From the NCBI GenBank assembly GCA_046758745.1, contig JBHIAV010000036.1, positions 1-30,031 on the forward strand: DNA of 30,031 nucleotides, given 5' to 3'. This stretch comes from Gemmatimonadota bacterium (GTDB lineage Bacteria > Gemmatimonadota > Gemmatimonadetes > Palauibacterales > Palauibacteraceae). Both the position numbers and the translations under genes were made by a program. Below, one piece after another: positions 11,527 through 29,742 of this stretch. Under the pieces are notes generated by a model. That model made no database searches. It was not told the DNA's origin and saw nothing but the letters and a program-made list of their open reading frames with translations. Each line of letters opens with the position of its first letter. Position 1 is the first letter of the stretch.

Positions 11527-14037
11527 TCAGCGACTGGCCCGGGTCGCGCCGCGATCGCGTGTCCGCCCCGCCTCTCTCAGCAACCGGTTCATCAGCTCGA
11601 TGTGCTGTTCGTCCGTGAGCCGCCCGGGAGTGGCGAACTTGGACCACAGCCTCTCGTTGGTCATCTCCCGGTGGCAGCCCATGCACAGGCCGGTGCGCCG
11701 CAGGCGACGGCGCTCACGATCGGAGAGCGCTCGAGACAGCGGCCAGTGGGTGCCCACCGTCTGCACCTGATTGCCGTCCCTATCCACGATGGTCGACCAG
11801 TCGAAGTCGAGGCCGGGGATCGACTGAATCTGCACCTGGTAGCGCTTCGGGATGATCTCGCCGGTCCGCTGGTCCATCAGATCCTCGACGATCTCTTCCG
11901 CATAGCGCGTCTGGAACGTCCCGCCACCGATGCCGTAGCCCAGCGCCTTCGGGTTGTTGTGGCAGCTCTCGCAGGTCCGGGCCTTCCGCTGGGCAGAGTG
12001 CGGCTGAACGGGAGACATGTCTATGGCCAGGGGGACGTGCTCCTGCCCCAGCTCCTTGGCCTCATCTTCGGATCTCTCGATTCGGTTGACGACGAGGGCC
12101 TCTCCATCCCGGCCGATCACGGTGAAGGCGACCTGACAGCCGGGCATCAGCGGCGTGATCCTTCCCTCGCCGTTCACCCCGAGCACCGGCTCTTCCCATC
12201 GGAGGTACGAGCGCGTCTCGAAGATCTTTCCGGGACTCTGGATCCCGGGGGTGCCGAGCGCCGACTCGGCGGTCTGGCCATCCGAGGTTCGCTTCGACCC
12301 CGAGGCGACCCAATCCGTGCCGGCGTACGGCACTCCATCGTCGTCGGCGCCGTAGTTGACCTGCACGTGGCAGCCGTAACACTGCGGCACCCAGGAGGCG
12401 TGGCACGCGTAACACTCCAACTGCTCCGCGTGGGCGCGGACTCGCTCCATGGCAACTCTCGCGTCCGCGCTCTTCCAGGTCCCCGCGAGGGCGATCGTCT
12501 TGAGCTGGGGCACGTCGAAGTCGACCCCGGTAGCCGAGTGCAGGATCACCCGGTCGCCGTCCCGGACGACGTTACCGAACGGGTTGCCTCGCGCCGTCAG
12601 CAGGTACCCATCGGACGCCTCGTACAGCGTCGCGAAGAATTCTGTTTCGGGAAGCGGTGCATCGGTCACGCCACGCGCCCCTCCATCCAGCTCTCTCCCG
12701 AACTCCTCTCCGAAGCCCAGAGGTAGCTCCCACGGATACAGCTCCGGCGTGCCGTGGCAGTCCGCGCACTCGATCTCCACCTGGGCGAGCGTCGTGCCGG
12801 AGATGTTCCCATCCCCGTGGATGTCGAGCGTGGTGTGACAGTCCTGGCACAGCAGCCCGCCTTGCGGGTTTCCGGGACGGCTCTCGATCTGGTGGTGGAG
12901 GTCGTCCGAGATGAAGAGGTACTTCTTCGTGTGTAGCGGCGGCTGCTTGTCGCCCGCCTCATTGAAGGGGCTCCCGTACTCGAACTCCATCAGTCCTTGA
13001 TAGGTCACGCCGATGCGTTTGCCCCGATTGTGGCAGGAGTTGCACGTCTCCACCGGAATGCCGCCGCCCGCCTCGCGGGTGCCGTGGATGCGGTGGGTGA
13101 GCATGTGTCCCGGCTCTTCGCGGTCGATCGTCGGGTCGCCGCCCTCGTAGTAGCCTTCGTTGCCGTACAGAACGTGACAGGCGGAGCAGCCCATCCCCCG
13201 ATAGTCACCCCGCCGCTCGCGCCCGCGCACCGCGACGTGGCAGCGCTGGCACTCCTGGCGCTGGTAGGTGAAGCCGGCCAGGTTCGGCTGCTCTTCGATC
13301 TCGTCCACCGAAGGGTTGGGGAGCTGTGAGAGCTCGGTGGGAAACTGGTCCGGATAGGCCGCGATGAGCCGGCCCATGTATGCCTTGTACGCCTCGGTTC
13401 CCACACTCGGGATCTGGCCGTCCTCATCCGCCACCGCGTAGTTGCCGTACGGAACCTTGTAGTACTGCACTTCCCGGATGCCCCAGGTATGGAGGTTTCC
13501 CTGGATCTTGCCCGCCTCCGTGTTCATGAGGGCCCGCTCGAGCCGGTAGGCGTATCCCTGGTGGCACTGACCGCAGGTCCGGTCGGCAACCCAGATGCTG
13601 CCGGGGTCGGGGTAGAACTCACGCGGGCCGGTGTCCGGGACGCCTTCCGGGATGCCCTGGTGCGCCTCCTCCGCCGTCGCCGCGTCCGGCGTGCCGCCGT
13701 GGCACACCACGCATCCATCCGGATCGCCGAACGCTCCACCGAACGCGCGGATCTGGAGAAGCATCCCGCTCCCCTCCTCGCGGATCGGCTCGATCCCCTG
13801 GTGACAGCTCAGGCAGCCCGTCCCCTCGGTCCGCACTCCCGCCGTCTGGGCCGCTTCCTCGGCGACCTGCGCGCCCTGTCGGTCTTGCCCGCAGCCCGAA
13901 AGGAGCGCCAGCACCGCCGCCGCACCGGCGAGTACCGGGAAGCCGACTCGGCGCGTACGGGCTCGTCGAGCGGGCCCCGCGTGAGGGCCGGCGTCCGGGC
14001 GGCGGCATTCTCTACACATGGCGGATCGACGGCTCAT
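11527..14037 (-). CDS. multiheme (12 CxxCH) c-type cytochrome lipoprotein
   Basis: Lipobox LLSGC; CLSCH, CVVCH, CGQCH, CQRCH, CSACH, CNSCH, CQDCH, CADCH, CYACH, CYGCH, CESCH, CMGCH. ATG 14037 overlaps the porin stop (ATGA). Confidence 0.92.
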   Translation of the reverse strand: MSRRSAMCRECRRPDAGPHAGPARRARTRRVGFPVLAGAAAVLALLSGCGQDRQGAQVAEEAAQTAGVRTEGTGCLSCHQGIEPIREEGSGMLLQIRAFGGAFGDPDGCVVCHGGTPDAATAEEAHQGIPEGVPDTGPREFYPDPGSIWVADRTCGQCHQGYAYRLERALMNTEAGKIQGNLHTWGIREVQYYKVPYGNYAVADEDGQIPSVGTEAYKAYMGRLIAAYPDQFPTELSQLPNPSVDEIEEQPNLAGFTYQRQECQRCHVAVRGRERRGDYRGMGCSACHVLYGNEGYYEGGDPTIDREEPGHMLTHRIHGTREAGGGIPVETCNSCHNRGKRIGVTYQGLMEFEYGSPFNEAGDKQPPLHTKKYLFISDDLHHQIESRPGNPQGGLLCQDCHTTLDIHGDGNISGTTLAQVEIECADCHGTPELYPWELPLGFGEEFGRELDGGARGVTDAPLPETEFFATLYEASDGYLLTARGNPFGNVVRDGDRVILHSATGVDFDVPQLKTIALAGTWKSADARVAMERVRAHAEQLECYACHASWVPQCYGCHVQVNYGADDDGVPYAGTDWVASGSKRTSDGQTAESALGTPGIQSPGKIFETRSYLRWEEPVLGVNGEGRITPLMPGCQVAFTVIGRDGEALVVNRIERSEDEAKELGQEHVPLAIDMSPVQPHSAQRKARTCESCHNNPKALGYGIGGGTFQTRYAEEIVEDLMDQRTGEIIPKRYQVQIQSIPGLDFDWSTIVDRDGNQVQTVGTHWPLSRALSDRERRRLRRTGLCMGCHREMTNERLWSKFATPGRLTDEQHIELMNRLLREAGRTRDRGATRASR

Positions 14038-15182
14038 TGGAGTCTCCACGAGAAGTTCAGATCAAGCCTGAATCGCTTCTGAAACTCGTCCTCGCGCGGC
14101 TCGTTGCGGGCGCTCCACAGCGTCCATACGTGGGCATTCGCGAAGGGCAGATACTGTATGGCGAAGCCGAGCAGATGGCCGCGAAAGTTGGCCGCATCCA
14201 GGAAATCGTCCTGCGCCACCGGCGAGAATATCGCCTCCCGGCCAAAGTCCTGATAGCGGTACGCCAACCGCCACTGTCCGGGGCGACCCAGCCGGCCCAC
14301 CACGCCGCCCACCGCGAACCCGTCGTCGTCGAAACCGGACGCCGCGGACGCGTTCACCACATACTCGGCCGCCGCGGCGACGGGTACGGGCAACCCGTCA
14401 TAAATCAGCGCCGCGTGAGCGTTCCAGATGGAGAACTCGGAGGCGAAGGCGATCGTATCGCCCGCCGCGTCCGTGACCAGCGAGTTGCCCTGATTCTGGC
14501 GTCCCAGCTCGCGAGCGCCACCGGCGTCGGGGGTTCCGTAGATGTAGGTCCCCACGGCCGCGTCGAGGCGAAGCCGGCTCGCCGGCTGCAGCCTCACCGC
14601 CGCCTGTGCCGCGCCGAGGTTCACGTCCTTGCCGCCGCCCCGGTGGAGAAGCAGATAGCCGCCCCCGGCAAGCCGCAGCTCCGGTACCGGCTCGAAGAGG
14701 GCGGCGATTCCCTCCGGCTGAACGTCCGCGTCCCATACGAGCTCTCCGAAGACCGCCGGCATGGCGAACACATGCGGGAACTTTCCCGCTCTGATCTCGA
14801 GCAGCTGTGGAATGCGGGGGCGCCATCTGACGTACACGCGGTCCAGGGCCACGCGGGGATTCCGGAACGCCTCGCCCAGAGTCTGGTGCGTCGAGTTCGG
14901 GTCGTCGGGGTCCGGGGCGGTAACCAGGCGGGCGCCGACGGCGATGCCGGCGCCCAGCTCTCCCTCCGCCGCTATCCGGAATCGGACTCTGGCCCGCTCG
15001 CGGTCGGGGGCGCTCCGGCGGTCGCGGTCCACCTCGCCGCGCAGCCGGAAGTCACCGGAAAGGCGCCACCGCGGCGCGGAGTCCTGCGAGGCCTCCTGGG
15101 CGAGGGCAGCTCCGGGGGTCGTGAGTGCCAGGAGGACCGCCCCGCAGCAGGCCAGCCGGGGAATGGCCGGCAGCCGTTTCAT
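14034..15182 (-). CDS. putative porin (Porin_5-like outer-membrane beta-barrel)
   Basis: Signal peptide ALA-QE; SGDFRLR.E, R.R.RFRI, DPNSTHQTL, LDRVY, LVWDADVQPEG, terminal strand RLDLNFSW. Start set at MKRLPA. Confidence 0.8.
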   Translation of the reverse strand: MKRLPAIPRLACCGAVLLALTTPGAALAQEASQDSAPRWRLSGDFRLRGEVDRDRRSAPDRERARVRFRIAAEGELGAGIAVGARLVTAPDPDDPNSTHQTLGEAFRNPRVALDRVYVRWRPRIPQLLEIRAGKFPHVFAMPAVFGELVWDADVQPEGIAALFEPVPELRLAGGGYLLLHRGGGKDVNLGAAQAAVRLQPASRLRLDAAVGTYIYGTPDAGGARELGRQNQGNSLVTDAAGDTIAFASEFSIWNAHAALIYDGLPVPVAAAAEYVVNASAASGFDDDGFAVGGVVGRLGRPGQWRLAYRYQDFGREAIFSPVAQDDFLDAANFRGHLLGFAIQYLPFANAHVWTLWSARNEPREDEFQKRFRLDLNFSWRLQ

Positions 15183-15491
15183 CGCATGGGGCTGCGAGCC
15201 GTAAGGCAAGAACCGGAACTCGACACGGCGGTCACTCCGTTGGGTTCGTTGTCAGGACCAGGCAGAACTCCGGTCGGAGAGCCCGGACCTCTCTCGCTCC
15301 ATCAGCGTGGCGCGCCGGGCCGCGCCGGCGCCGCTGGTTCAGAGAGACCGGCTGACCCGATGGAATCACCGTTGCAGGCTTGACCTTAGCCGCCCGATGT
15401 CGTGCCGTCTCGTCGGGAAGAGCTCGCGGCCGGATGTAGGGCATCTCCCCAGGCCACCCCACCGACGACCGGACCAGGGACCAGCTGCCGG

Positions 15492-16916
15492 CTACGCTAC
15501 GGAGTCCGTTGCCCGGGCATCTCGCGGGAGACGCACCCGAAAGAGCGCGCCCCCTGCAGGGCGATTCTCGGCCGTGACGCTCCCCCCGTGGGCCACGGCG
15601 ATGGCTCGGACGATCGACAGGCCGAGGCCGCTGCCCTCGACCCGCGTCCGCGAGGCATCCCCGCGCACAAAGCGATCGAAGAGGCTGTCCAGCGCTTCCT
15701 CCTCGATGCCCGGACCCGAATCCGCCACCTCGAGCACCGCCATCCCATCGTCGGCGGTCACCGAGACGTCCACCCTCCCTCCGGGGGGCGAGAACTTGAT
15801 CGCGTTGTCGAGGAGATTCCAGATGAGGCGATCGATGAGCTCCGGGTCGTAGTAACCGGTGGTCCGCCCTCGCGCGTTCACCTCCAGCCGGATGTTCCTC
15901 TCGTCCGCCCGCTTCCCGATGCGCCCAACGGTGCTCCGCGCGCGGTCGGCCAGATCGATTCTCTCTCGGCGCGGCTGCATGACCCCCGCATCGGAGCGGG
16001 CCAGGGTCAGGAGGTTCTGCGCGAGGTTCGAGAGCCTCTCCGTCTCCTCCAGCGCGCTGTCGATCACCCGCCGATACTCCTCGGGGCTCCGCTCGCGCCG
16101 AAGGGCCAGTTCCAGTTCCCCGCGCAGAGCGGTAAGGGGCGACCGTAGCTCGTGACCCGCATCCGCCGTGAAGCGGCGCTGCGCCTCGAACGCGGCATCG
16201 ATCCGCCCCAGCATCGTGTTCAGCACCTCGACCAGTCGGTGGTATTCGCGCCATTCGGCGTGGGCGCTGATGCGCCGGCCGAGCGTGTTGGCGCCGATCT
16301 CCTCCGCCTGATCGATGACCTCGCGCACGGGACGCAGGCTCGTGGCCGCTAGCCACCAGGCCCCGACGAAGGTGCCGCCCGACACGACAAGGACCAGTCC
16401 GACCAGGAAGAAGGCGGTCCTCCGCAGAGTCTTGTTGCGCCACGTGAGGGGAGCCGCCACCTGCAGCACGTGGCGGGCGTGGCCCGGACTGAGGCGGCCC
16501 AGCGGATAGTACACCGAGCGAATCGCCTCCCCCCGGAATCGATTCTCCCTCCAGATCAGCTCTCCGGTCACCGCTCGCCGCAGCGCCGCCGTGTCCACGG
16601 GAAGGTCCTCTGCCAGGTACTCGCTCCGCAGCAGGCTCTCCCCGGACTCGCTCCAAACCTGCAGATAGCGGTTCAGGTCCTTGAGCGAGGCCGCTTCCTC
16701 CGGGGTGAGGTTCCACTCGTGGAAGAACATCACGCCCGCGGGGTCATCGGCAACCGTCGCCGCCTGGATCGAGGCGACGCTCATCACGCTCGCGTCGATC
16801 TGACGGTCGAGGGTCTCTCGAACAACCAGGTAGCCGAGCCCGGCCGCCGCGGAGAGGCCGAGCGTCATCGTCGCGCCGTAGCGAAAGGCGAGCTGGAGGC
16901 AGACGGAGCGTCTCAT
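15492..16916 (-). CDS. heavy-metal-type sensor histidine kinase (CusS/CzcS-like)
   Basis: Two TMs, HAMP domain, H-box FTADAGHELRSPL, N-box NLLDNAIKFS, DSGPGI, GSGLGLSI. Start set at MRRSV. Confidence 0.88.
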   Translation of the reverse strand: MRRSVCLQLAFRYGATMTLGLSAAAGLGYLVVRETLDRQIDASVMSVASIQAATVADDPAGVMFFHEWNLTPEEAASLKDLNRYLQVWSESGESLLRSEYLAEDLPVDTAALRRAVTGELIWRENRFRGEAIRSVYYPLGRLSPGHARHVLQVAAPLTWRNKTLRRTAFFLVGLVLVVSGGTFVGAWWLAATSLRPVREVIDQAEEIGANTLGRRISAHAEWREYHRLVEVLNTMLGRIDAAFEAQRRFTADAGHELRSPLTALRGELELALRRERSPEEYRRVIDSALEETERLSNLAQNLLTLARSDAGVMQPRRERIDLADRARSTVGRIGKRADERNIRLEVNARGRTTGYYDPELIDRLIWNLLDNAIKFSPPGGRVDVSVTADDGMAVLEVADSGPGIEEEALDSLFDRFVRGDASRTRVEGSGLGLSIVRAIAVAHGGSVTAENRPAGGALFRVRLPRDARATDSVA

Positions 16917-16924
16917 CCGGCTTT

Positions 16925-17605
16925 CTACTCGGGCGCCGTGCGGCTCAGCATGAATCCGACGCCCCGCACGGTGTGGATCAGGGGGCTCCGTCCGCCGCGC
17001 CGGAGCTTCTGACGCAGGTTGGCCACATGCACATCCACCACATTGCTCATCGGGTCGAAGTGCTCGTCCCACACCTTCTCGAGCAACTCCGTCCGCCGCA
17101 CCGCCTGTTCAGGCCGCAGGAGCAGGTACTCCAGGAGCTGGAACTCTTTCGGGGTCAGGCCCAGGCGTTCTCCCGCGCGCGAAGCCGTGTGCCCGATCCG
17201 GTCGAGTTCCAGGTCGTTGTACACCAGGAGCTCCGGACGGCTCGGTCCGCCGCGGCGAAGCAGGGCCCGGACCCTGGCCAGGAGCTCGTCGAAGCTGAAC
17301 GGCTTCGTGAGATAGTCATCCGCCCCGATGTCGAGGCCCCGAACCACATCTTCCGTGGAGTCCCGGGCCGTGAGAAGAAGGATCGGCACCGGGTCTTCCT
17401 CCTTCCTGAGCTCGCGCACGATCTCGTATCCGCTCTTTCCGGGGAGCATGATATCCAGCACCAGGAGATCGTAGTCGTAGACGTGGGCCTTCAGGGACCC
17501 ATCTACGCCGTCATGGGCCACATCGACCGCATACCCCTCCTCCCTCAGCCCTCTGGCGACGAAGCTCGCCACCTTCTCGTTATCCTCGACAACCAGCAAC
17601 CTCAT
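16925..17605 (-). CDS. OmpR-family response regulator (CusR/CzcR-like)
   Basis: MRLLVVED, LDIMLP, GADDYLTKPF, LTPKEF.LL, SNVVDVHV.NLR.K, TVRGVG. Confidence 0.93.
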   Translation of the reverse strand: MRLLVVEDNEKVASFVARGLREEGYAVDVAHDGVDGSLKAHVYDYDLLVLDIMLPGKSGYEIVRELRKEEDPVPILLLTARDSTEDVVRGLDIGADDYLTKPFSFDELLARVRALLRRGGPSRPELLVYNDLELDRIGHTASRAGERLGLTPKEFQLLEYLLLRPEQAVRRTELLEKVWDEHFDPMSNVVDVHVANLRQKLRRGGRSPLIHTVRGVGFMLSRTAPE

Positions 17606-18149: not shown

Positions 18150-18171
18150 CCGATCGGACCACGCCCTCTGA
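17754..18171 (+). pseudogene. cupredoxin pseudogene (paralog of 23378-23896)
   Basis: +1 insertion at ~17960, ~117-nt internal deletion (VVPK|IVISEE), and Cu ligand His changed to Arg (CTRREKLGM vs CTRHEKLGM). Confidence 0.85.
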
Positions 18172-20875: not shown

Positions 20876-20876
20876 G

Positions 20877-23176: not shown

Positions 23177-23232
23177 CCGCTCGCGGCAAGGTCCGCCACC
23201 TCCTCGTGGTTCTCGACAACCAGTAGTTACAG
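23177..23232 (-). pseudogene. 5' remnant of the response regulator
   Basis: Reads L*LLVVENHEEVADLAASG versus intact MRLLVVEDNEKVASFVARG (ATG to CTG, stop at codon 2). Confidence 0.75.
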
Positions 23233-23310
23233 CGAACCGCCTCGCGCCCAGAAATCTGAAGACTTCCTAATAAGCGGTTCTTAACCGATTTCTCACCAGT
23301 AATTTAGCCG
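23233..23310. promoter_or_regulatory. promoter region, copy 2
   Basis: TTCCTAATAAGCGGTTCTTAACCGATTTCTCACCAGTA. Confidence 0.65.
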
Positions 23311-23377
23311 CTGATTCCTATCTTTGTGTTTGGCGGGAACGTGGAGCGCGGGGAACGACGCACACAAGGGCGGAAAG

Positions 23378-23896
23378 ATGGCTCGAGCACTCGGCACTGC
23401 CTTGGCAGCGACATTCGCGGGGGGCCTGTCCCTCGTGGCGACCTCCCCACATCCGGGCCACACCCCGCAAGATTCGGCGACGCGGACCATCATCGTGAAG
23501 ATGGTCGAGTTCGCGTTCGAGCCGCCGGTGGTTGTGAGCCGTGCGGGGGATGTGGTCCGTTTCGTCCAGACCACCGCCACTCCACACAACGTGCAGTTCC
23601 GGGTCGTCCCGAAGGGAACGGAGCTGACCTTCCAGGGGCCAACGACGGCCGTTGACACCGAACCGGTTCGAGTCGGCTATCCCCCTCCCCGAATGGGCCC
23701 GTTCCTGATCAAGCCGGGGCAAGCATACGAAATCGTCATCTCCGAGGAGTTTCCGACTGGGCTCTACCGATACGTGTGCACGCGGCACGAGAAGCTGGGG
23801 ATGAGCGGGGAGATTGGGGTGGCACCCTCCGCCGTGTCGAGCTTGCGGGTGAGACGATCCCGCCAGGGCAAGGCCGTCGGGTTCCTCGAGACTTAG
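23378..23896 (+). CDS. cupredoxin (plastocyanin/azurin-family blue copper protein)
   Basis: Signal-like N-terminus; F.FEP, GDVVRF, PHNV, YRYVCTRHEKLGM give the type-1 Cu ligands H, C, H, M. Confidence 0.88.
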   Translation: MARALGTALAATFAGGLSLVATSPHPGHTPQDSATRTIIVKMVEFAFEPPVVVSRAGDVVRFVQTTATPHNVQFRVVPKGTELTFQGPTTAVDTEPVRVGYPPPRMGPFLIKPGQAYEIVISEEFPTGLYRYVCTRHEKLGMSGEIGVAPSAVSSLRVRRSRQGKAVGFLET

Positions 23897-23910
23897 GACG
23901 GAGGATTCAA

Positions 23911-24777
23911 GTGAGCAGCTATACGAAGCGCAGCGCACTGGTCGTGGCGGCGAGCCTCCTCGCTTGGGGCTGTGCGAGTTCGGACAACCCCACGGCTCTC
24001 GCCGACCTCGAGCCGGTCGTCGAGTTCGAGATCGAGGCGGCCGAGGTGGAGACCATGGAGGGGGTGGAGGTCCACGCGGCCGTCCACGAAGGCGGAGCGC
24101 CGCTCCGGATGACCTCGGCCCAGCTGGAGATCGAGCCGGCGAGCGGGAGCCCCGTCCGGGTGGTGGAGATGGAGCCGGAAGGCGACGGATACGGCGCCCA
24201 CGTGCGCTTCTTCGAACCGGGCGAGCACCACCTGCGCCTCCTGGGCCAACCGGAGCGACACAACCTCATGCGCGAGATGGGCGAGCACGAGGTGCATGTG
24301 TTTCGCCAGCACCGCGCGATCGGTCCCTATTGGATCGAGATCGGAGTGCGCCCGGCGCGGATCATCGAAGGCGAGGAAGCCGTTGTCCGCCTTTACGCGT
24401 TCGAGCTCGTGCCGGACGGGACCATCGGCCCTCCGGTGAACGGACTCCAAATGGAGACGAGCCTGCATCACCCGGGTGGGCATGAGACGCCTCTCGATTT
24501 CACCGAACAGGAGCCCGGCCTGTACGAGGCGGAGTGCCTGTTCGCCGAAGCCGGTGTGTACGAGCTCCACGTGGGGATCGAGGGGGAAGAGGCGGAGCAC
24601 AGTGAGGAGGAAGAGGGAGAAGAGTACGCCGAAGGCGAGCACTGGGAGGAAGAGCACGTCGACGACGGCCACGATCACGAGGCCGAATTCCACATCGTGG
24701 TGCTGACGGAGTCCGGCGATGACGTCGGAGGTCCCGAGGACGGCCATGGAGGAGACGACCATGGGCACGCGCACTGA
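23911..24777 (+). CDS. lipoprotein with two YtkA/FixH-like Ig domains and a His/acidic-rich C-terminus (putative metal chaperone)
   Basis: RBS GGAGG, GTG start; lipobox LAWGC; DGYGAHVRFFEPGEHHL and PGLYEAECLFAEAGVYEL; tail ...HVDDGHDHE...DGHGGDDHGHAH. Confidence 0.7.
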   Translation: MSSYTKRSALVVAASLLAWGCASSDNPTALADLEPVVEFEIEAAEVETMEGVEVHAAVHEGGAPLRMTSAQLEIEPASGSPVRVVEMEPEGDGYGAHVRFFEPGEHHLRLLGQPERHNLMREMGEHEVHVFRQHRAIGPYWIEIGVRPARIIEGEEAVVRLYAFELVPDGTIGPPVNGLQMETSLHHPGGHETPLDFTEQEPGLYEAECLFAEAGVYELHVGIEGEEAEHSEEEEGEEYAEGEHWEEEHVDDGHDHEAEFHIVVLTESGDDVGGPEDGHGGDDHGHAH

Positions 24778-25897
24778 GCAGGTCGGCATGCTGTCCGGCC
24801 TCGGTGCCGCAGCGCTTCTGCTCCTCTTCACAGCGCAGGGAGCGGCGGCCCAAGAGGCGGACGCCGATTCGAGAGTCGTCCCGACCAACGCGTTCGTGGT
24901 CAGCGGCTACGGCACGGTCGGGTACTCGGCTCGTACAACGGGCGAAAACATCAACGCGTTCACCGCCGGCATAAACCCGATCTTCCTGTTCCAATTCCAG
25001 GACCGGGTCCTCTTCGAGGCGGAGTTCGAGTTCGAACTGGAGGAGGGCATCACGGAGACGGGGCTGGAGTACGCTCAGCTCGACTTCGTCGCCACGGACA
25101 ACCTGACCCTGGTTGGAGGCAAGTTTCTCCTGCCCTTCGGCGTCTTTGGAGAGCGACTCCATCCGACCTGGATCAACAAGTTCCCCAGCGCTCCGCCCCT
25201 GTACGGGCACCACGTATCCGACTTCGGAGCGGAGCCGCTGCTCCCGATCCTCTCCGACCTGGGCCTGATGGCCCGCGGCACGGTGTCCCCCGGGGCCTGG
25301 CAGCTCAGCCTCAACCCCTATGTCGTGCAGGGGCCGGTCGTAGAGGGCGAGCTGGAGGGAGAGGAGACCCACGAAGGGGAAATCGCCGTACCGGAGCTCG
25401 AGTTTCCGGCATCCTCGAGTGACAACAACGCGAACAAGATGCCGGGCGTCCGGCTCGACATCGCCCTCCCGCCCTGGCTCGAGGTCAACGGCTCGATCCT
25501 CAACGGCGATTACGACGAAGTGGGCATCCTGGACTTCACCGCGTGGAATCTGGCAGCTGAGCTTCGCTTCTCAAAGTTCGAGCTACGGGGCGAGTACGTG
25601 CAGACGCGCCAGGAGATCGAAACGCTCGAGGGCTTCCCGACGCTGGTGCGGGACGGCTTCTACGCCCAGGCCTCCTACCGGGCGGGGCGCTGGGAGCCCG
25701 TGTTCCGCTGGACGCAGGTCTTCGATGACCAGCTCGCTGGCGAGTCCATCGGGAATGGCGCCTGGCAGGCGGGATTCGGCCTCGACTACTGGTTCAGCCC
25801 CTCGATCGCGGTGATGGCGGGATACGAGTTGAACCGCGAAGACGGAGCCGAGGTGGAAAACGATCGATTCCTGATCCACGTCGCGTTCGGCTATTAG
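24761..25897 (+). CDS. outer-membrane porin, paralog of 18190-19254
   Basis: RBS GGAGGAG; signal AAA-QE; EAEFEFE, LEYAQLD, GGKFLLPFG, LHPTWINK, DNNANK, GFYAQASY, terminal HVAFGY. Confidence 0.82.
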   Translation: MGTRTEQVGMLSGLGAAALLLLFTAQGAAAQEADADSRVVPTNAFVVSGYGTVGYSARTTGENINAFTAGINPIFLFQFQDRVLFEAEFEFELEEGITETGLEYAQLDFVATDNLTLVGGKFLLPFGVFGERLHPTWINKFPSAPPLYGHHVSDFGAEPLLPILSDLGLMARGTVSPGAWQLSLNPYVVQGPVVEGELEGEETHEGEIAVPELEFPASSSDNNANKMPGVRLDIALPPWLEVNGSILNGDYDEVGILDFTAWNLAAELRFSKFELRGEYVQTRQEIETLEGFPTLVRDGFYAQASYRAGRWEPVFRWTQVFDDQLAGESIGNGAWQAGFGLDYWFSPSIAVMAGYELNREDGAEVENDRFLIHVAFGY

Positions 25898-25907
25898 GAA
25901 GGGAGCC

Positions 25908-26537
25908 ATGAGATACATACTGACAGGAGGAGCGCGCGCCCTGGCGTGCCTCGCGGTGTTCTCCCTGGCGGCGCTCGTCGCCGACGACGCCCCCGGTCAG
26001 GAAGTCTCGACCTCCCGGGTCGCGACGGGCGCGAGGGTGTACGGCAGCATGTGCGGTCGTTGCCACAACCCGCGCTCCCCGCTGGAGCGCAGCGACCGTG
26101 AATGGACCGTCATCGCGAACCATATGCGCATCCGTGGGAACCTCACGGGCGATCAGGTGAAGAGCGTGCTGGCGTTCCTGCAGGCGACCAACACCGATCC
26201 GCGTCAGCGGTCGGGTCCGGCGAACGAACCGGCGCCCGGCGCGCCCCACGATGAGGCCGAGCGATTGGAAGGACCCATCACGACCGACGCGGGCGCGATC
26301 TCACGCGGCCGGAGCCTGGTCTCCGAGAAGGCCTGCCTGGGATGTCATGTGATCGGGGACGCTGGGGGCAAGGTCGGCCCGACGTTGAACGGCATCACGG
26401 GCCGTCGCGAGCCGTCGTTCATCCGGCGCAAGCTCGCGGACCCGACCTTCAACACCAGCACATCCATGATGCCGAACTTCGGGCTTACGGCGGATGAGAT
26501 CGAAGCCCTGCTGGCCTATCTGTCGACGCTGGAGTGA
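25908..26537 (+). CDS. periplasmic diheme cytochrome c (N-domain paralogous to 19313-19924)
   Basis: CGRCHN...W..IANHM; CLGCH.IG..GG.VGP.L...MMPNF. Confidence 0.9.
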   Translation: MRYILTGGARALACLAVFSLAALVADDAPGQEVSTSRVATGARVYGSMCGRCHNPRSPLERSDREWTVIANHMRIRGNLTGDQVKSVLAFLQATNTDPRQRSGPANEPAPGAPHDEAERLEGPITTDAGAISRGRSLVSEKACLGCHVIGDAGGKVGPTLNGITGRREPSFIRRKLADPTFNTSTSMMPNFGLTADEIEALLAYLSTLE

Positions 26538-26715: not shown

Positions 26716-28116
26716 TCAAAAGGCAAGGTGTAGAGCAACACGGCCGAACTCTTCAAACAATGGTAGGTCAGGTGCTCTTTCGCTGCTCCAGCTATATCCG
26801 ATCATCAGCATTGTGTTCGAGCTCAGCAACATCAGGAGATCCGAGGAATATCGCTGGAAGCTCGAGGGAAAGCCTGCGGGGAATCCATCTACATCCACTC
26901 GTTCATAGCGGAACCCCGGTACTAGCCAAGGAAAGATGTATACTTGAGCCTCTCCGGTCGTGACTGTGGCGGACGGATTGTTCAGTGACGGTCTCTGCAA
27001 CTTGTCGTCGAAGAACTGTACCGATGCCAACAGGCTCAGATATCCGTTCTCCTGTTCCCACCTTGCATCCAGGCCCCAGCGCTTGAAGTCATTCCCGCCT
27101 GCCAAGAAGGACTCGGGGTCTTCCTGATCGAGCAGAAATCCAGACGTCCCGCTGTAAAAGAATCCTCCCGCTGAAAACGCGCCGCGAAGCCAGGTGTTAT
27201 AGTTGACGCGAGCGTAGTAGTCCTTCGCGTCATTATAATCGAACTCTCCTCCCCCTCCTTCGTACGCCTCCTTGAGTTCGCGGACGAGCTCTCCTACCGG
27301 GCCATCCGCGTCCTCCAGCGCCTCGAACGCCCCACCAGGCTCTCCGTTGACGAGCCCGACAGAATAGTCGACATCGCCCACTCCACCCGGGCCAGTGAGG
27401 CGACCAAAGACCTCGACTCCTTTCTGGTTTGGCGAGAATCCGAAGAAGTTCTGCGCAGGAATAACAGGAAAGACGCCGTTGAGATACGGCGTAATGCGCA
27501 GCAACCGCCGGTGGTTGGAGAAGGGTATCGCTCGAGGTTCGAATTGTCCCACCCGAACGTTAAAGGCAAGCCCCTGGTTGTACTGGAGAAAAAGTCGATC
27601 TATTCCCTCGAAGCGTCCCTCCTCGATAAGAGCGACATTGCCGAAGAACGAAAAATACTCGCCCATCGCGCCACCGAAGATCAGCCCGACGGAACTGATT
27701 CCGGCAAACTCCTGGTTGACCTCCGCTCCGGGACGGTATCTATAGTCCGAGATCACTTGAAACGAGGCGACGGAGGTGGCCGGTATATCGATGAAAGGTA
27801 TCTGGCTCGGTCTCTTCTTCCCGGTCGCCTCAACCTCCGGTCCCAATGGAAGAGGCTGTTCGCCGGCCAGCGTTTCCCCAGCACCCGGCAAACGGTAGCC
27901 CTTTGCCCGAAAAAGCTTGCCGTACTCGGTAAGAGACGGGAATACCGTGTGGCAGGTGCTGCAACTCAAGTTGTATCGGCGCGCAAAACTAGGGACAGAT
28001 GTTTCCGTCGGGGATAGTGACGGGTGGGGGACGATCGCCGGCGCCACCACAAGCGCGGGAGCCAGCACGCTCGCCAGGTTCAGGTGAGTCGCGCAAAGCT
28101 TATTGAGCAGATGCAT
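26716..28116 (-). CDS. cyc2: Cyc2-like fused monoheme cytochrome-porin
   Basis: N-terminal signature VPSFARRYNLSCSTCHTVFPSLTEYGKLFRAKGY followed by an amphipathic beta-strand barrel (NVRVGQFEP, terminal ALHLAF). Confidence 0.78.
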   Translation of the reverse strand: MHLLNKLCATHLNLASVLAPALVVAPAIVPHPSLSPTETSVPSFARRYNLSCSTCHTVFPSLTEYGKLFRAKGYRLPGAGETLAGEQPLPLGPEVEATGKKRPSQIPFIDIPATSVASFQVISDYRYRPGAEVNQEFAGISSVGLIFGGAMGEYFSFFGNVALIEEGRFEGIDRLFLQYNQGLAFNVRVGQFEPRAIPFSNHRRLLRITPYLNGVFPVIPAQNFFGFSPNQKGVEVFGRLTGPGGVGDVDYSVGLVNGEPGGAFEALEDADGPVGELVRELKEAYEGGGGEFDYNDAKDYYARVNYNTWLRGAFSAGGFFYSGTSGFLLDQEDPESFLAGGNDFKRWGLDARWEQENGYLSLLASVQFFDDKLQRPSLNNPSATVTTGEAQVYIFPWLVPGFRYERVDVDGFPAGFPSSFQRYSSDLLMLLSSNTMLMIGYSWSSERAPDLPLFEEFGRVALHLAF

Positions 28117-28181: not shown

Positions 28182-28940
28182 CTATTTCGCGATGATCGAA
28201 AGCAAGTAGTTCGTCAGATCCCACATCTGATCCTCACTGAGTGCATCGAGCCAACTCGGCATGGGAGTGCCGCCGATTCCTACAGCGATGCTTCGGAAGA
28301 TGTCCTGCGGCCGGTTGCCCCCACGCCAGTTTCGTGAAACCGTCAGGTCAGCCGGGACGATCGGGTAATCCCAGTCGTCAGTTAAGTCGCCCGACGCCGG
28401 ACCGTCGCCTTTCCCGAGAAAACCATGGCATTTCCAACACTCGACTTCCAGATAAAGCCGTCTGCCGTTGGCGACACTTTCCGGGTACGGCGGCTTGGGC
28501 GTTCCGATCTCGATCGGCACCGGCACATCTTCCTCGTCGAAGCTGCGTGCCAGGGTCTTCACATAGGCCACCAGCTGCCAGCGTTGCTTCTCAATCAGGT
28601 TTGACCAGGCCGGCATCGTGGTTCCGGGAAGCCCCCGGGTGAGCGTACCAAAGAGATCCTGATCGGTGGGGAGACTGCCGGTCGGAGTGGAGCGGATCTT
28701 GAAAAGCCCCCGCGTCAGGTCTCTCGGCTTAGGGAAGATATACCTCGCGACGGGGCCGTCCCCCCTGCCCTTCGTGCCGTGACAGAAGACACATTTCCTG
28801 CGGTAAAGCCGTTTCCCGGCGGTCACCGCCCCGTCTTGGGCTATCCAGCTCTCTCCCGCCGCCGATTGCGCTTGCAGCTCAGTCGGCATCCCCGCACATG
28901 CGAGGATCACGACAGCGGCTATCGTACGCTGCTTGCTCAT
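28182..28940 (-). CDS. periplasmic diheme cytochrome c
   Basis: CVFCHG..GRGDGP...PKPRDLT.G.FK.RST...MPAW; CWKCHG..GKGDGP...GTPMPSW. Start set at MSKQRT. Confidence 0.9.
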   Translation of the reverse strand: MSKQRTIAAVVILACAGMPTELQAQSAAGESWIAQDGAVTAGKRLYRRKCVFCHGTKGRGDGPVARYIFPKPRDLTRGLFKIRSTPTGSLPTDQDLFGTLTRGLPGTTMPAWSNLIEKQRWQLVAYVKTLARSFDEEDVPVPIEIGTPKPPYPESVANGRRLYLEVECWKCHGFLGKGDGPASGDLTDDWDYPIVPADLTVSRNWRGGNRPQDIFRSIAVGIGGTPMPSWLDALSEDQMWDLTNYLLSIIAK

Positions 28941-28998
28941 CGGATACCGATCGCCGCCTCGGCCCAGGGTTCCAATCTCGTGTGGGGCACCCGGTGGC

Positions 28999-29742
28999 TT
29001 ATCTCGCCTCCAGCTCCACGTCAACGCGCACCTTTCCGGCATCGGGAATGGTCACCTGTCGAGTCTGGGTGCCAAGCCTCTCGTGCCACACCTCCAGCGT
29101 GTACCTGCCCGGGGGCACCTCCTCGAGTTGGTACGAGCCGTTCTCGTCCGTGACCGCATAGTAGGGGTGGGCCGCCACTACGATCCACGCTTCCATCCAC
29201 TCGTGGATGTCACACTCGACCCGGATCCTCTCCGGTTGCCTGAACTTGACCTGGAGCTTCTTCAGCATCCCCGGTTGCGCCTTGTTGATCGGGCGATTCT
29301 CTGAGCTGCGGGTGCTGAAGTTGTGAAGAATGCCATCGCTGTTGAGGACAGCGAACGGCGCCCCGGCCGGAACGACGAGCACGTGAGGGGCGAAACGGCA
29401 GCCCCTCTGGTCGAGGGCTCGAGGCTCGCTCTGGGTGCCGAACGGCTTGCCTTCCGTTATATCGCTTAGGGAAACGACCGCATTCCGCAATCCGTTCGTC
29501 CCGCTCTTTACGAGAAGATCTTCGGCAACTTTCGGCTCTGCTCCGCAGACCTCGTGGTCTTTGGTAACTTCAAGACGTGTGGGTGCTGGTAGCGTGCCCG
29601 TAACCGTAACGCTGCCGATGATTTGTCCGCCGCCCTCCACCTCGCGCGCGTTGTAGGCAGGAGCCTGCTGGGAATAGCCAAAGGATGCGGTTGTGGCCGT
29701 CCAGGCAACCACCATGAGTACCGAGTAGCGCCGTTTCAGCAT
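28999..29742 (-). CDS. secreted protein with a cupredoxin-like domain and a carboxypeptidase-regulatory-like Ig domain
   Basis: LDQRGCRFAPHV, NSDGILHN, CDIHEWM (H...C-x2-H-x2-M), HPYYAVTD.NG.Y.L..VPPG.YTL.VWHE.LG. Start set at MLKRRY. Confidence 0.82.
   Translation of the reverse strand: MLKRRYSVLMVVAWTATTASFGYSQQAPAYNAREVEGGGQIIGSVTVTGTLPAPTRLEVTKDHEVCGAEPKVAEDLLVKSGTNGLRNAVVSLSDITEGKPFGTQSEPRALDQRGCRFAPHVLVVPAGAPFAVLNSDGILHNFSTRSSENRPINKAQPGMLKKLQVKFRQPERIRVECDIHEWMEAWIVVAAHPYYAVTDENGSYQLEEVPPGRYTLEVWHERLGTQTRQVTIPDAGKVRVDVELEAR

What the first reader, a model, noticed from the sequence alone, without database searches (positions are those of the whole stretch)
11527..29742. Candidate undescribed system: metal-sensor-controlled, multi-conduit electron-transfer island linking four outer-membrane barrels to a dedicated Rieske/cytochrome b complex
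Seen: in ~18 kb every intact gene except the regulator pair encodes an envelope redox, porin or metal-binding protein. That is 4 barrels each paired or fused with a c-cytochrome, 23 CxxCH motifs (12+2+2+2+2+1+2), 2 intact type-1 Cu domains, a His-rich lipoprotein and a Rieske/cyt b-cc complex, around a CusRS/CzcRS-type pair. No efflux pump, P-type ATPase, multicopper oxidase or terminal oxidase is in the window. Known: CusRS-type systems usually control efflux. Porin-cytochrome pairs and Cyc2 carry electrons across the outer membrane. Acidithiobacillus links Cyc2, a diheme c4 cytochrome, rusticyanin and a bc complex. Inference: this is a metal-inducible redox circuit between the cell surface and the menaquinone pool (Fe/Mn oxidation, or redox detoxification of Cu or other metals) in a high-GC diderm. 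The gene style suggests Gemmatimonadota, which is unverified.
Basis: partly seen in the sequence, partly recalled or inferred. Interest (0 to 1): 0.9.

Follow-up and report, generated by a model that had tools for sequence, protein, structure and literature searches.

The report
Porin-cytochrome electron-transfer gene cluster, Gemmatimonadota
A Gemmatimonadota contig packs several outer-membrane porin and cytochrome modules next to a complex-III-type enzyme, and one of them, a porin with a separate two-haem cytochrome, looks like an undescribed two-piece relative of the iron oxidase Cyc2.

Summary
Window 11527-29742 carries 16 genes, 14 of them envelope redox, porin or metal-binding, with 23 CxxCH motifs against 0.04 expected.

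It is a mosaic, not one conserved island.
- Native core, Gemmatimonadota: an OmpR-family regulator pair whose divergent promoter was duplicated. An identical 38-nt box now precedes two paralogous cassettes of cupredoxin, 16-strand OprP-like porin and soluble dihaem cytochrome c.
- Cassette 1 continues into a Rieske/cytochrome b-cc complex.
- The porin-dihaem pair recurs in 39 of 49 related loci. It lies in one same-strand run with Cyc2 in two whole loci, near alternative complex III in 8 and near DoxX in 15, but never near Rieske/cyt b.
- A complex model puts the cytochrome's first haem domain in the porin's periplasmic mouth: score 0.89, best control 0.17.
- The fused barrel is a true Cyc2. 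Its block has foreign composition and Acidobacteriota-type relatives, so it is a transfer or a chimeric join.
- The 12-haem/Porin_5 pair is found beside the porin nowhere else.
- Metal sensing is not shown.

The closest described systems are the Geobacter ext cluster and the Cyc2/bc1 iron-oxidation pathways. I rate it a new variant of a known kind.

The parts
11527..14049 (-). A: 12-haem c-type cytochrome lipoprotein (lipobox LSGC); the likely start gives 11527-13914
   Evidence: It has 12 CxxCH. Pfam hits are Cytochrome_C7 and a weak MtrC/MtrF dom II/IV. The best NCBIfam hit is ExtM at 220.9 bits, below the cut-off of 800. The best 120 relatives are 66-80% identical and come from several phyla. 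No PDB sequence match.
14034..15209 (-). B: Porin_5 outer-membrane barrel, overlapping the long A ORF by 16 nt
   Evidence: Pfam Porin_5 at 60.6 bits. The nearest Atlas clusters are all Porin_5. It is not found near barrel E in any of the 80 loci.
15492..17072 (-). C: sensor histidine kinase (likely start 16916)
   Evidence: HisKA, HATPase_c and HAMP domains. TIGR01386 scores 269.3, below the cut-off of 292.55, and matches model positions 143-457 only. The sensor domain has no PDB match at E<=1.
16925..17605 (-). D: OmpR/CusR-like response regulator
   Evidence: Response_reg plus Trans_reg_C. TIGR01387 scores 235.4, below the cut-off of 279.2. Orthologues of 61-69% identity lie next to E-type barrels in L030, L031 and L035.
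17636..17673 (+). 38-nt conserved box in the divergent promoter region, copy 1
   Evidence: The pattern has 2 matches in the window, at 17636 and 23264, and 0 in 100 shuffles. It contains TTCCTAA and TTCTTAA direct repeats.
17726..18158 (+). Cupredoxin pseudogene, the decayed copy of J
   Evidence: It is 83-90% identical to 23350-23822. It carries a 117-nt deletion, a 1-nt insertion and a Cu-ligand codon change from CAC to CGC.
18190..19254 (+). E: 16-strand OprP/general-porin-like barrel, with the LHPTW motif in constriction loop L3
   Evidence: AF2 model with pLDDT 85.8 and 16 strands. Foldseek finds OmpU, PorB, OprP and OprO. The family has 172 hits, and all 6 organism-named ones are Gemmatimonadota. 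A conserved acidic/His cluster lies on strands 1-4.
19313..19924 (+). F: soluble dihaem cytochrome c, with an N-terminal DHC-like haem domain and a C-terminal c6/cbb3-like domain
   Evidence: Pfam. Invariant residues are C40, C43, H44, M64 and C124, C127, H128, M174. An F-type gene follows E in 39 of 49 loci, and in 38 of them the gap is -1 to 140 nt. The predicted complex with E scores 0.89 against a best control of 0.17.
19955..20875 (+). G: dihaem cytochrome c, probable lipoprotein (VGGC); the start is uncertain
   Evidence: It has 2 CxxCH and weak SorB-like matches. Homologues follow F in L025 (305 bits) and in L017 and L037 (about 100 bits).
20862..21368 (+). H: Rieske 2Fe-2S protein with a Tat signal (RRHFLK)
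   Evidence: Pfam Rieske at 42.6 bits. The CTHLGC and CPCH boxes are present.
21375..23069 (+). I: cytochrome b (b6 plus subunit IV type, PDWY motif) fused to two class I c domains
   Evidence: Pfam Cytochrome_B, Cytochrom_B_C and 2 Cytochrom_C domains. The best PDB match is cytochrome b6 at 161.7 bits. The fused architecture is common: at least 10 of the best 150 representatives cover both c domains.
23177..23301 (.). Second copy of the regulator 5' end (decayed) and of the 38-nt box (23264-23301)
23324..23896 (+). J: type-1 cupredoxin, intact
   Evidence: Pfam Copper-bind at 39.2 bits, above the cut-off of 21.2. The ligand set is HN...C-x2-H-x4-M.
23776..24777 (+). K: His/Glu-rich YtkA-like periplasmic protein (likely start 23911; non-canonical lipobox AWGC)
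   Evidence: Pfam YtkA at 26.3 bits. It has 24 His. No PDB match. It is found in 0 of 80 loci.
24719..25897 (+). L: paralogue of barrel E
   Evidence: It is 29-31% identical to E and keeps LHPTW. Weak Porin_4 hit.
25908..26537 (+). M: paralogue of dihaem cytochrome F
   Evidence: It is 27% identical to F over 176 aa. It has 2 CxxCH.
26716..28116 (-). N: Cyc2-family fused cytochrome-porin
   Evidence: The motif reads PSFARRY-NLS-CSTCH-TVF-PSL, against the published definition. The AF2 model has 16 strands. OprP and OprO are among the top Foldseek hits. The nearest relatives are Acidobacteriota.
28182..29042 (-). O: dihaem class I cytochrome c (likely start 28940)
   Evidence: Two Cytochrom_C domains. 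It matches PDB chain 6h5l_B at 211.9 bits.
28999..29787 (-). P: cupredoxin-like domain plus CarboxypepD_reg domain (likely start 29742)
   Evidence: Pfam. H-N...C-x2-H-x2-M is kept in 6 of 6 P-like proteins. P-like genes flank Cyc2 in L007, L009, L046 and L048.

Best explanation
This is a mosaic neighbourhood of modules for electron transfer between the cell envelope and the quinone pool. It is not one inherited system.

Native core. An OmpR-family two-component pair sits beside a divergent promoter. That promoter was duplicated together with a cupredoxin gene, so the same 38-nt box precedes two paralogous cassettes. Each cassette encodes a 16-strand OprP-like porin (E, L) and a soluble dihaem cytochrome c (F, M).

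Proposed mechanism (inferred). The first haem domain of F caps the periplasmic mouth of E and reaches the constriction loop. The pair would then be a two-piece counterpart of the fused porin-cytochrome Cyc2. A small soluble substrate, most likely Fe(II) or another cation, would enter the acid/His-lined outer half of the pore and exchange an electron with haem 1. Haem 2 would pass the electron on to periplasmic carriers, G and cupredoxin J. Cassette 1 continues into a Rieske/cytochrome b-cc menaquinol:cytochrome c oxidoreductase. Electrons could therefore go uphill to the quinone pool, or reach an oxidase encoded elsewhere.

Flanks. One side holds a Porin_5 barrel with an ExtM-like 12-haem lipoprotein. 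The other holds a compositionally foreign Cyc2 + dihaem c + cupredoxin block of the type used for Fe(II) oxidation.

Shown: gene content, the duplication, recurrence of the E-F pair, and Cyc2 membership.
Inferred: binding of E and F, the substrate, the direction of electron flow, and the regulator's signal.
For: - Gene content.
- Duplication: 17550-18158 matches 23177-23902 at 72-90% identity. The regulator remnant has decayed in one copy and the cupredoxin in the other. The identical 38-nt box occurs only at these two promoters, with 0 matches in 100 shuffles.
- Similar TTCTTCA direct repeats lie between orthologous regulators and E-type barrels in L031 and L035.
- Fold: E is a classical 16-strand porin with an L3 loop.
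- Recurrence: an F-type gene follows E in 39 of 49 close loci, and 42 of those have at least 700 nt downstream. In 38 of the 39 the gap is -1 to 140 nt.
- Complex model: ipSAE 0.89 (three runs 0.88, 0.89, 0.90), best of 3 controls 0.17. The mark was reached by 116 of 157 solved complexes and 2 of 215 mismatched pairs. These counts hold only roughly, because my own alignments and a riding haem were used. The runs agree in at least 95% of contacts and the partner's pLDDT is at least 78. The interface comprises F residues 28-74, including C43 and H44, with E's periplasmic turns and L3 residues 121-131.
- Context elsewhere: in L007 and L009 the sigma54 two-component genes, a P-like cupredoxin, a motif-positive Cyc2, E and F lie on one strand (DoxX and a multihaem gene follow in L007). 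L046 and L048 also hold Cyc2 and a P-like gene upstream of E, but both contigs end at E.
- A full alternative complex III set lies next to E-F in 8 loci, directly downstream on the same strand in 4. DoxX is present in 15 loci and directly follows F in 9.
- Literature: Cyc2 to c4/cupredoxin to bc1 or ACIII is the accepted Fe(II)-oxidation scheme (PMC13741234 and PMC10654088, passages).
Against: - Rieske and cytochrome b are next to an E-type barrel in 0 of the 49 close loci. One distant locus, L051, has a Rieske gene there.
- A, B and K are found in 0 of 80 loci.
- Residues in the predicted E-F interface are no more conserved than the rest: E 0.60 against 0.64 (permutation p about 0.85), F 0.61 against 0.53 (p about 0.07).
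- The complex score is the model's own confidence, not a measurement.
- E has a folded-in L3 loop like ordinary diffusion porins, so it could simply be a channel.
- The regulators next to E-F differ between genomes: sigma54-type in 19 of 49, LuxR-type in L025 and L030, and this OmpR type in 3 of 49.
- The box is absent upstream of B-A and of P-O-N.
- No terminal oxidase and no substrate-specific enzyme is present to fix the direction or the substrate.
- The Cyc2 block may not belong to this genome.
Confidence: 0.5

Rival explanations
1. Copper-responsive remodelling or copper homeostasis. A CopRS/CusRS-like pair senses periplasmic copper. It switches on a cupredoxin (CopI- or plastocyanin-like), a His-rich copper-binding protein, alternative porins and a copper-dependent or copper-independent branch of the respiratory chain. 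The cytochromes are ordinary carriers and the barrels ordinary porins.
For: - The heavy-metal two-component subfamily is the top NCBIfam hit for both regulator proteins.
- The box-bearing promoters drive a cupredoxin, once two of them, and a protein with 24 His.
- In L030 the orthologous pair, 49% and 69% identical, lies next to an HMA-domain gene, and an RND pump gene is in the same locus.
- F's second domain resembles cytochrome c6.
Against: - Both regulator scores are below the curated cut-offs. The sensor domain matches neither the family model nor any solved structure.
- The window has no efflux pump, CopA-type ATPase or multicopper oxidase.
- The E-F pair is mostly under other regulator types elsewhere.
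- This reading does not explain the predicted E-F binding or the same-strand arrangement with Cyc2 in L007 and L009.
Confidence: 0.2
2. Electron export rather than uptake. This would be an Ext-like respiratory module that carries electrons from menaquinol through the Rieske/cyt b complex and periplasmic cytochromes to the 12-haem lipoprotein and the porins. The acceptors would be soluble or surface metals or metalloids, as proposed for the Geobacter extHIJKLMNOPQS cluster (selenite and tellurite reduction).
For: - A's best family is ExtM and I's b domain scores 199.4 with ExtP.
- The ext cluster holds a phosphate-porin-like porin, a 12-haem cytochrome, a Rieske protein, a cytochrome b and a lipoprotein cytochrome c (PMC5877670, passages).
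- A is a lipoprotein with 12 CxxCH motifs. Multihaem cytochromes of this kind are usually bis-His and low-potential (recalled).
Against: - A and I are below the equivalog cut-offs: 220.9 against 800 and 199.4 against 290.
- There is no ExtH, ExtKL or ExtN counterpart.
- His/Met class I cytochromes, cupredoxins and a Cyc2 fit high-potential, oxidative chains better.
- A-B is not seen with E-F in any other locus.
Confidence: 0.15
3. There is no integrated system. Unrelated envelope genes happen to be adjacent, and the right-hand block, and perhaps the left end, was joined by metagenome mis-assembly. E and L are plain nutrient porins, and F and M are ordinary periplasmic cytochromes.
For: - GC and GC3 change sharply at about 26540 and about 2945: GC3 is 0.65-0.74 there against 0.76-0.90. 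Tetranucleotide correlation with the core is 0.83-0.88 for the right block and 0.61-0.69 for the left end, against 0.91-0.96 within the core.
- N nests among Acidobacteriota-named proteins, far from three Gemmatimonadota Cyc2 (L007, L009, L048), with 100/99 support.
- The whole island recurs nowhere among 80 loci.
- The interface is not specially conserved.
Against: - The promoter duplication ties two cassettes together.
- E-F adjacency is conserved in 39 of 49 loci across 45 Gemmatimonadota-titled and 4 other records.
- E-F recurs with Cyc2, ACIII or DoxX.
- In four other Gemmatimonadota loci Cyc2 and a P-like gene lie next to E (with F too where the contig runs on, L007 and L009). A chance chimeric join producing the same neighbourhood would be a coincidence.
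- The complex model passes its controls.
Confidence: 0.15

Closest known systems
Cyc2 iron-oxidation pathway (Acidithiobacillus rus and petI operons; the neutrophilic Cyc2 - Cyc1 - bc1/ACIII scheme)
   Same: The window has a bona fide Cyc2-family fused cytochrome-porin next to a dihaem class I cytochrome and a cupredoxin. These are the same three kinds of gene as cyc2-cyc1-cup/rus. A dihaem cytochrome gene also precedes Rieske/cyt b genes, as I recall cycA1 does in petI (order recalled; component lists from PMC10654088 and PMC13741234, passages).
   Different: No cytochrome oxidase genes are present. Gene order and strand differ. The complex III is a b6-type cytochrome b fused to two c domains with a PDWY motif. 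The Cyc2 block is compositionally foreign. The extra porin plus separate dihaem cytochrome cassettes have no counterpart in those operons.
Geobacter sulfurreducens extHIJKLMNOPQS cluster
   Same: One cluster combines an outer-membrane porin weakly similar to phosphate porins (ExtI), a 12-haem cytochrome (ExtM), a Rieske protein (ExtO), a cytochrome b (ExtP) and a lipoprotein cytochrome c (ExtS) (PMC5877670, passages). A's best NCBIfam hit is ExtM, and I's b domain scores nearly as well with ExtP (199.4) as with cytochrome b6 (200.2).
   Different: The scores are below the equivalog cut-offs. The window has no rhodanese ExtH, no selenoprotein ExtKL and no 10-haem ExtN. Here cupredoxins, Cyc2, dihaem class I cytochromes and a two-component pair are added. 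The phylum differs.
MtrAB/PioAB/Pcc porin-cytochrome conduits
   Same: An outer-membrane barrel is encoded next to, and predicted to bind, a c-type cytochrome that enters it from the periplasm.
   Different: E has 16 strands with an L3 loop, not the 26 strands described for PioB and MtoB (PMC10654088, passage). F has two haems, one of which docks, rather than a threaded decahaem wire. There is no sequence similarity.
CusRS/CopRS regulons with the CopI-type cupredoxin
   Same: An OmpR-family pair has the heavy-metal subfamily as its best match. It is divergently transcribed from genes for a cupredoxin and a His-rich protein.
   Different: The scores are below the family cut-offs and the sensor domain is unmatched. 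There are no efflux or oxidase genes. The regulon would consist of porins, cytochromes and a Rieske/cyt b complex.

Membership tests
Cyc2 fused cytochrome-porin (gene N) | Single CXXCH near the N terminus, after a signal peptide | tested here: met
   N has one CxxCH, at residue 52, after a hydrophobic N-terminal stretch. The definition is from PMC8406198, passages.
Cyc2 fused cytochrome-porin (gene N) | AXPXFAR[Q/K][T/Y] (screen form PXFAR[Q/K][T/Y]) upstream of CXXCH, and PXL four residues after it | tested here: met
   N reads SVPSFARRY-NLS-CSTCH-TVF-PSL. It has R where Q or K is listed, and the relatives mostly have K. PSL begins at the 4th residue after H.
Cyc2 fused cytochrome-porin (gene N) | Length of at least 365 aa and a 16-strand porin resembling OprO/OprP | tested here: met
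   N is 466 aa. The AF2 model has 16 strands over residues 116-465, with pLDDT 73.7 and a poorly modelled cytochrome domain. Foldseek ranks OprP 2nd and OprO 3rd.
Cyc2 fused cytochrome-porin (gene N) | FeGenie Cyc2 HMM score and Fe(II) oxidase activity | not testable with these tools
   No FeGenie models are on hand and no assay is possible.
MtrAB/Pcc-type porin-cytochrome conduit (E-F, B-A) | A large barrel (26 strands are described for PioB and MtoB) that sheaths a periplasmic multihaem cytochrome | tested here: not met
   E has 16 strands with a folded-in L3 loop and F has two haems. B, at 391 aa, was not modelled here. The Atlas holds a model of it that matches Porin_5 clusters. The strand number comes from the PMC10654088 passage.
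Heavy-metal two-component subfamily (CusRS/CzcRS/CopRS) | Score at or above the NCBIfam cut-offs of TIGR01386 and TIGR01387 | tested here: not met
   The scores are 269.3 against 292.55 and 235.4 against 279.2. Both are the top-ranked family.
Heavy-metal two-component subfamily (CusRS/CzcRS/CopRS) | Periplasmic metal-binding sensor domain | tested here: not met
   The TIGR01386 match covers model positions 143-457 only. The 151-aa sensor stretch has no PDB hit better than E = 0.67. Metal binding itself is not testable here.
Geobacter Ext cluster (ExtM, ExtP equivalogs) | Equivalog score cut-offs | tested here: not met
   ExtM scores 220.9 against 800 and ExtP 199.4 against 290.
Rieske/cytochrome b complex (H, I) | Rieske CxHxGC...CxCH boxes, and cytochrome b N- and C-terminal domains above the Pfam cut-offs | tested here: met
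   H has CTHLGC and CPCH. Pfam scores are Rieske 42.6 (cut-off 20.3), Cytochrome_B 151.1 (27.2) and Cytochrom_B_C 26.7 (20.7). PDB cytochrome b6 matches at 161.7 bits.
Type-1 cupredoxin (J, P) | His, Cys, His, Met copper ligand set | tested here: met
   J scores 39.2 with Copper-bind (cut-off 21.2) and has HN...CTRHEKLGM. P has LHN...CDIHEWM, kept in 6 of 6 P-like proteins, but has no Pfam cupredoxin hit.
Phosphate-selective porin OprO/OprP (E, L) | 16-strand fold, with an arginine ladder for anion selectivity | tested here: inconclusive
   The fold matches: TM 0.68 to 2o4v, and relatives carry PF07396. The conserved pore-side residues on strands 1-4 are acidic or His (D42, E44, D62, H64, H65, E83, E85, E87, H88, E91, E92, E96), and L3 is basic. 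This is judged from strand register, not from coordinates.

The most novel reading that the evidence does not exclude
The OprP-like porin plus separate dihaem cytochrome c (E-F, and its paralogue L-M) is an undescribed two-component porin-cytochrome, a 'split Cyc2'. It is widespread in Gemmatimonadota. One haem domain plugs the periplasmic mouth of a cation-selective 16-strand pore and oxidises dissolved Fe(II) or another metal. The second haem domain feeds whichever quinone-linked enzyme the genome places beside it: ACIII, DoxX or, here, a Rieske/cyt b-cc complex. In this contig the module was duplicated and put under a metal-responsive regulator.
Probability: 0.3. Interest if true: 0.75.

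Novelty: new variant of a known kind. Interest (0 to 1): 0.58.

Why it matters
Cyc2 is the main genetic marker used to infer iron oxidation in metagenomes. Its homologues have already been noted in Gemmatimonadota and Acidobacteriota MAGs, but their function there is unresolved (PMC11316326 and PMC9769843, passages).

A conserved two-piece porin-cytochrome would add a second, currently unannotated marker. It sits next to Cyc2 in four Gemmatimonadota loci, in one same-strand run in two of them. It would also offer a tractable system, two small proteins, for testing how a 16-strand porin and a haem domain move electrons across or at the outer membrane.

The duplicated promoter supplies a ready-made regulator-binding hypothesis. 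The compositional break is a caution against reading metagenomic 'islands' as single systems.

Tried and rejected
The taxonomy of P0123, P0132 and P0135 is therefore unchecked.
- No tRNA and no Rfam family was found in the window.
- The promoter and terminator scan was uninformative: 0 promoter-like sites, and 13 terminator-like sites against 8.9 +/- 2.8 expected.
- The contig is not visibly circular. There is no terminal overlap and no shared 14-mers between the ends.
- I looked for a Rieske gene start after G at the end of L025 and found none in the last 170 nt.
- The 38-nt box and looser TTCYTMA repeats are absent upstream of B-A and of P-O-N.
- The kinase sensor domain and K have no informative PDB sequence matches. 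A has none either.
- The predicted E-F interface is not enriched in conserved residues.
- Profile comparisons are only weak leads. E family against Cyc2 family gives probability 79.7% over 185 columns. F against Cyc2 gives 62% over 30 columns around the haem motif.
- Barrels B and N show no BLAST similarity to E or L.
- No supplementary files were read. Cyc2 motif figure S8 of PMC8406198 and Supplementary Fig. 18 and the tables of PMC11316326 could bear on the Cyc2 and Gemmatimonadota statements.
- Literature searches found no description of a porin plus dihaem cytochrome module in Gemmatimonadota. These were keyword searches of open-access text only.

Full report
**What is there.** The window is 30,031 bases, the same length as the longest contig listed for its own proteins. 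ORF listing, GC3 filtering and a codon-usage gene caller, together with Pfam and NCBIfam scans, give 16 genes between 11527 and 29787.

- On the minus strand lie the regulator D (16925-17605), the kinase C (15492-16916), a Porin_5 barrel B (14034-15209) and a 12-CxxCH lipoprotein cytochrome A (11527-13914).
- Divergently on the plus strand lie a cupredoxin pseudogene (17726-18158), barrel E, dihaem cytochrome F, dihaem probable lipoprotein G, Rieske protein H and cytochrome b fused to two c domains, I.
- These are followed by cupredoxin J, the His-rich YtkA-like protein K, barrel L and dihaem cytochrome M.
- Convergent on the minus strand lie P (cupredoxin-like domain plus CarboxypepD_reg), O (dihaem c) and N (a barrel with one N-terminal CxxCH).

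The 23 CxxCH motifs (12+2+2+2+2+1+2) are confirmed. Within-protein shuffles give 0.04 on average, with a maximum of 2 in 2000. The six proteins outside the island have none.

**Taxonomy and integrity of the contig.**
- Barrel E has 172 relatives at E<=0.001, and all 6 hits with an organism name are Gemmatimonadota. The best is 75% identical.
- Of the 49 close genome loci retrieved with the E family, 45 carry Gemmatimonadota-lineage titles.
- The decarboxylase gene at 7873-9366 also matches a Gemmatimonadota locus, L010, at 588 bits.

The three right-hand genes are different.
- Their GC3 is 0.65-0.74 against 0.76-0.90 for the rest, and GC falls from about 0.66 to 0.58 at 26.5 kb.
- Tetranucleotide correlation with the core is 0.83-0.88, against 0.91-0.96 within the core.
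- N's close relatives are Acidobacteriota: all 7 organism-named hits of 42% identity or more, with the best at 79%.
- In a maximum-likelihood tree N sits inside that clade. The three Gemmatimonadota Cyc2 proteins in the tree (L007, L009, L048) lie across a branch with 100/99 support.
- The left 2.9 kb is also deviant.

I cannot tell horizontal transfer from a chimeric assembly without reads. One point favours a real neighbourhood. In four other Gemmatimonadota loci their own Cyc2 and a P-like gene lie directly upstream of E. The ends do not overlap, so there is no sign of a circular replicon.

**The promoter duplication.** Positions 17550-18158 and 23177-23902 are direct repeats of 72-90% identity. 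Each holds three things: the first codons of the regulator gene, the intergenic region and a cupredoxin gene.
- Copy 1 keeps the regulator but has a broken cupredoxin, with a 117-nt deletion, a 1-nt insertion and a copper-ligand His codon changed to Arg.
- Copy 2 keeps the cupredoxin, and its regulator stub has decayed.
- Inside the repeat, a 38-nt stretch is identical in both copies apart from the two positions written as N in the search pattern. It occurs nowhere else in the window, with 0 matches in 100 shuffles.
- It contains TTCCTAA and TTCTTAA direct repeats. The intergenic regions between orthologous regulators and E-type barrels in L031 and L035 carry three TTCTTCA-like repeats about 11 nt apart.

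This is good circumstantial evidence that regulator D controls both plus-strand cassettes. The box is not found upstream of B-A or of P-O-N.

**Is the regulator a metal sensor?** This is not shown.
- The heavy-metal subfamily is the best NCBIfam match for both proteins, but both score below the cut-offs. The kinase match covers only the HAMP and kinase core.
- The sensor domain has no solved relative.
- Support is indirect. A cupredoxin and a protein with 24 His lie in the putative regulon, and in L030 an HMA-domain gene sits beside the orthologous pair.

**The fused barrel is Cyc2.** Keffer et al. define Cyc2 by five features: a signal peptide, one CXXCH, an upstream AXPXFAR[Q/K][T/Y] motif, a PXL motif four residues after the haem site, and a length of at least 365 aa with a 16-strand OprO/OprP-like porin (PMC8406198, passages).
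- N reads SVPSFARRY-NLS-CSTCH-TVF-PSL and is 466 aa.
- It models as a 16-strand barrel.
- Its top structural matches include OprP and OprO.
- The only deviation is R in place of Q or K, and relatives mostly have K.

Cyc2 homologues in Gemmatimonadota and Acidobacteriota MAGs have been reported (PMC11316326 and PMC9769843, passages). Horizontal transfer of Cyc2 is described as common (PMC12442345, passages).

O is a dihaem class I cytochrome with a solved homologue, 6h5l_B, at 211.9 bits. P keeps a His-Cys-His-Met set in 6 of 6 relatives. The block thus holds the same three kinds of gene as cyc2-cyc1-cup/rus.

**The porin plus dihaem cytochrome pair.** E models confidently (pLDDT 85.8) as a 16-strand porin with an internal L3 loop that holds the LHPTW motif. 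It resembles OmpU, PorB, OprP and OprO. It is therefore not a wide sheath like the 26-strand barrels described for PioB and MtoB.

Recurrence with F:
- An F-type gene follows E in 39 of 49 close loci, and 42 of those have at least 700 nt downstream.
- In 38 of the 39 the gap is -1 to 140 nt.

F has two His/Met haem sites that are invariant in 33 sequences.

One controlled complex job gave ipSAE 0.89 (runs 0.88, 0.89, 0.90), with 0.17 as the best of 3 controls.
- The tool states that this mark was reached by 116 of 157 solved complexes and 2 of 215 mismatched pairs. These counts hold only roughly here, because my own alignments and a riding haem were used.
- The runs agree in at least 95% of contacts and the partner's pLDDT is at least 78.
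- The interface joins F residues 28-74, the first haem domain including C43 and H44, to the periplasmic turns of E and to L3 residues 121-131.
- I know of no solved complex of this kind (recalled), so a pass from memory seems unlikely. The model supports binding and does not show it.
- Against it, interface residues are no more conserved than the rest.

Conserved charged residues form an acid/His cluster in i, i+2 register on strands 1-4, facing a basic L3. This fits a specific, possibly cation-selective, pore. That reading rests on strand register, not on coordinates.

E and L are 29-31% identical and F and M are 27% identical, so cassette 2 is an old paralogue of cassette 1.

**What E-F keeps company with.** Counts are out of the 49 close loci.
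- A sigma54-type regulator is present in 19.
- DoxX is present in 15, directly after F in 9.
- A full alternative complex III gene set is present in 8, directly downstream on the same strand in 4.
- A motif-positive Cyc2 is present in 4 and a P-like cupredoxin in 7.
- The window's regulator type is present in 3.
- G is present in 3.
- Rieske, cytochrome b, A, B and K are each present in 0.

In L007 and L009 the run sigma54 two-component genes, P-like, Cyc2, E, F lies on one strand (DoxX and a multihaem gene follow in L007; L046 and L048 end at E). One distant Ignavibacteria locus, L051, has FeoB, a Rieske gene and a distant barrel.

The whole island is therefore not conserved. Still, the slot beside E-F is repeatedly filled by a quinone-linked enzyme, and here that enzyme is a Rieske/cyt b-cc complex. 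The complex is genuine: it has the Rieske boxes, cytochrome b6 as its best solved match and a PDWY motif. PDWY has been associated with menaquinol use (recalled). Its fused b-c architecture is widespread.

**The 12-haem/Porin_5 pair.** A belongs to a very large family. It has 2604 hits, and the best 120 are 66-80% identical over about 800 aa. They are named 'cytochrome C' in Gemmatimonadota, Proteobacteria, Planctomycetes and Bacteroidetes, and once 'ExtM'. B is a Porin_5 protein.

**Comparison with known systems.** Two described systems are closest.
- The Cyc2 - c4/cupredoxin - bc1 or ACIII iron-oxidation schemes.
- The Geobacter extHIJKLMNOPQS cluster, which already unites a phosphate-porin-like porin, a 12-haem cytochrome, a Rieske protein, a cytochrome b and a lipoprotein cytochrome c.

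The window is a member of neither cluster: equivalog cut-offs are not met and many components differ. It probably works like them. What I did not find described is the separate porin plus dihaem cytochrome module and its duplication under one regulator. This rests on keyword searches of open text only.

**Verdict.** It is a new variant of a known kind. The most interesting part is the E-F module, not the island as a whole.

Noticed in passing
window 1-112 and 168-330: The contig starts inside the 3' end of a class I cytochrome c gene (...MPGFAGRLTEEEITYLMALLRVWQE*). A small ORF with a hydrophobic N-terminal stretch follows. A respiratory gene cluster may continue beyond the left end.
   Followed up: partly
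window 681-1781 and 1782-2944: An EB_dh (ethylbenzene-dehydrogenase-like haem-binding) domain protein with a collagen-like stretch lies in a low-GC region (0.53-0.60). It is followed by about 1.16 kb with no ORF of 80 aa or more, no tRNA and no Rfam match. In L017 and L037 an EB_dh domain is fused to an O-like dihaem cytochrome.
   Followed up: partly
window 2945-4819: One ORF fuses an NTPase_1 (THEP1-like) domain (residues 4-166) to a complete Nramp metal transporter (residues 248-597). The sharp rise in GC begins exactly at this gene.
   Followed up: no
window 9610-11487: A full-length bacterial homologue of angiotensin-converting enzyme (Peptidase_M2, 755 bits) lies directly beside the 12-haem cytochrome gene.
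   Followed up: no
L017 14404-20537 and L037 12658-19563: Two Gemmatimonadota loci carry, near E-F-G, a cluster of P-like cupredoxin-CarboxypepD_reg proteins, a 640-660 aa Cyt_bd_oxida_I-like protein, several cytochromes c and an O-like dihaem cytochrome fused to EB_dh. This may be a bd-like oxidase module.
   Followed up: partly
L051 6758-11020: In an Ignavibacteria genome a distant relative of barrel E is preceded by a Rieske gene and, further upstream, by a FeoB ferrous-iron transporter gene.
   Followed up: partly
window 11527-13914 (family of protein A): The 12-haem cytochrome is unusually conserved across phyla, at 66-80% identity over about 800 aa in the best 120 of 2604 hits. This suggests strong constraint or frequent transfer.
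   Followed up: partly
L045 9404-16793: An Ignavibacteriales locus has a cytochrome c gene, an E-like barrel, two small genes and a full alternative complex III set on one strand. The barrel-complex III association therefore extends outside Gemmatimonadota.
   Followed up: partly
window 29787-30029: An 80-aa open-ended ORF lies upstream of P on the minus strand. It has no recognisable features and is probably non-coding leader sequence.
   Followed up: no
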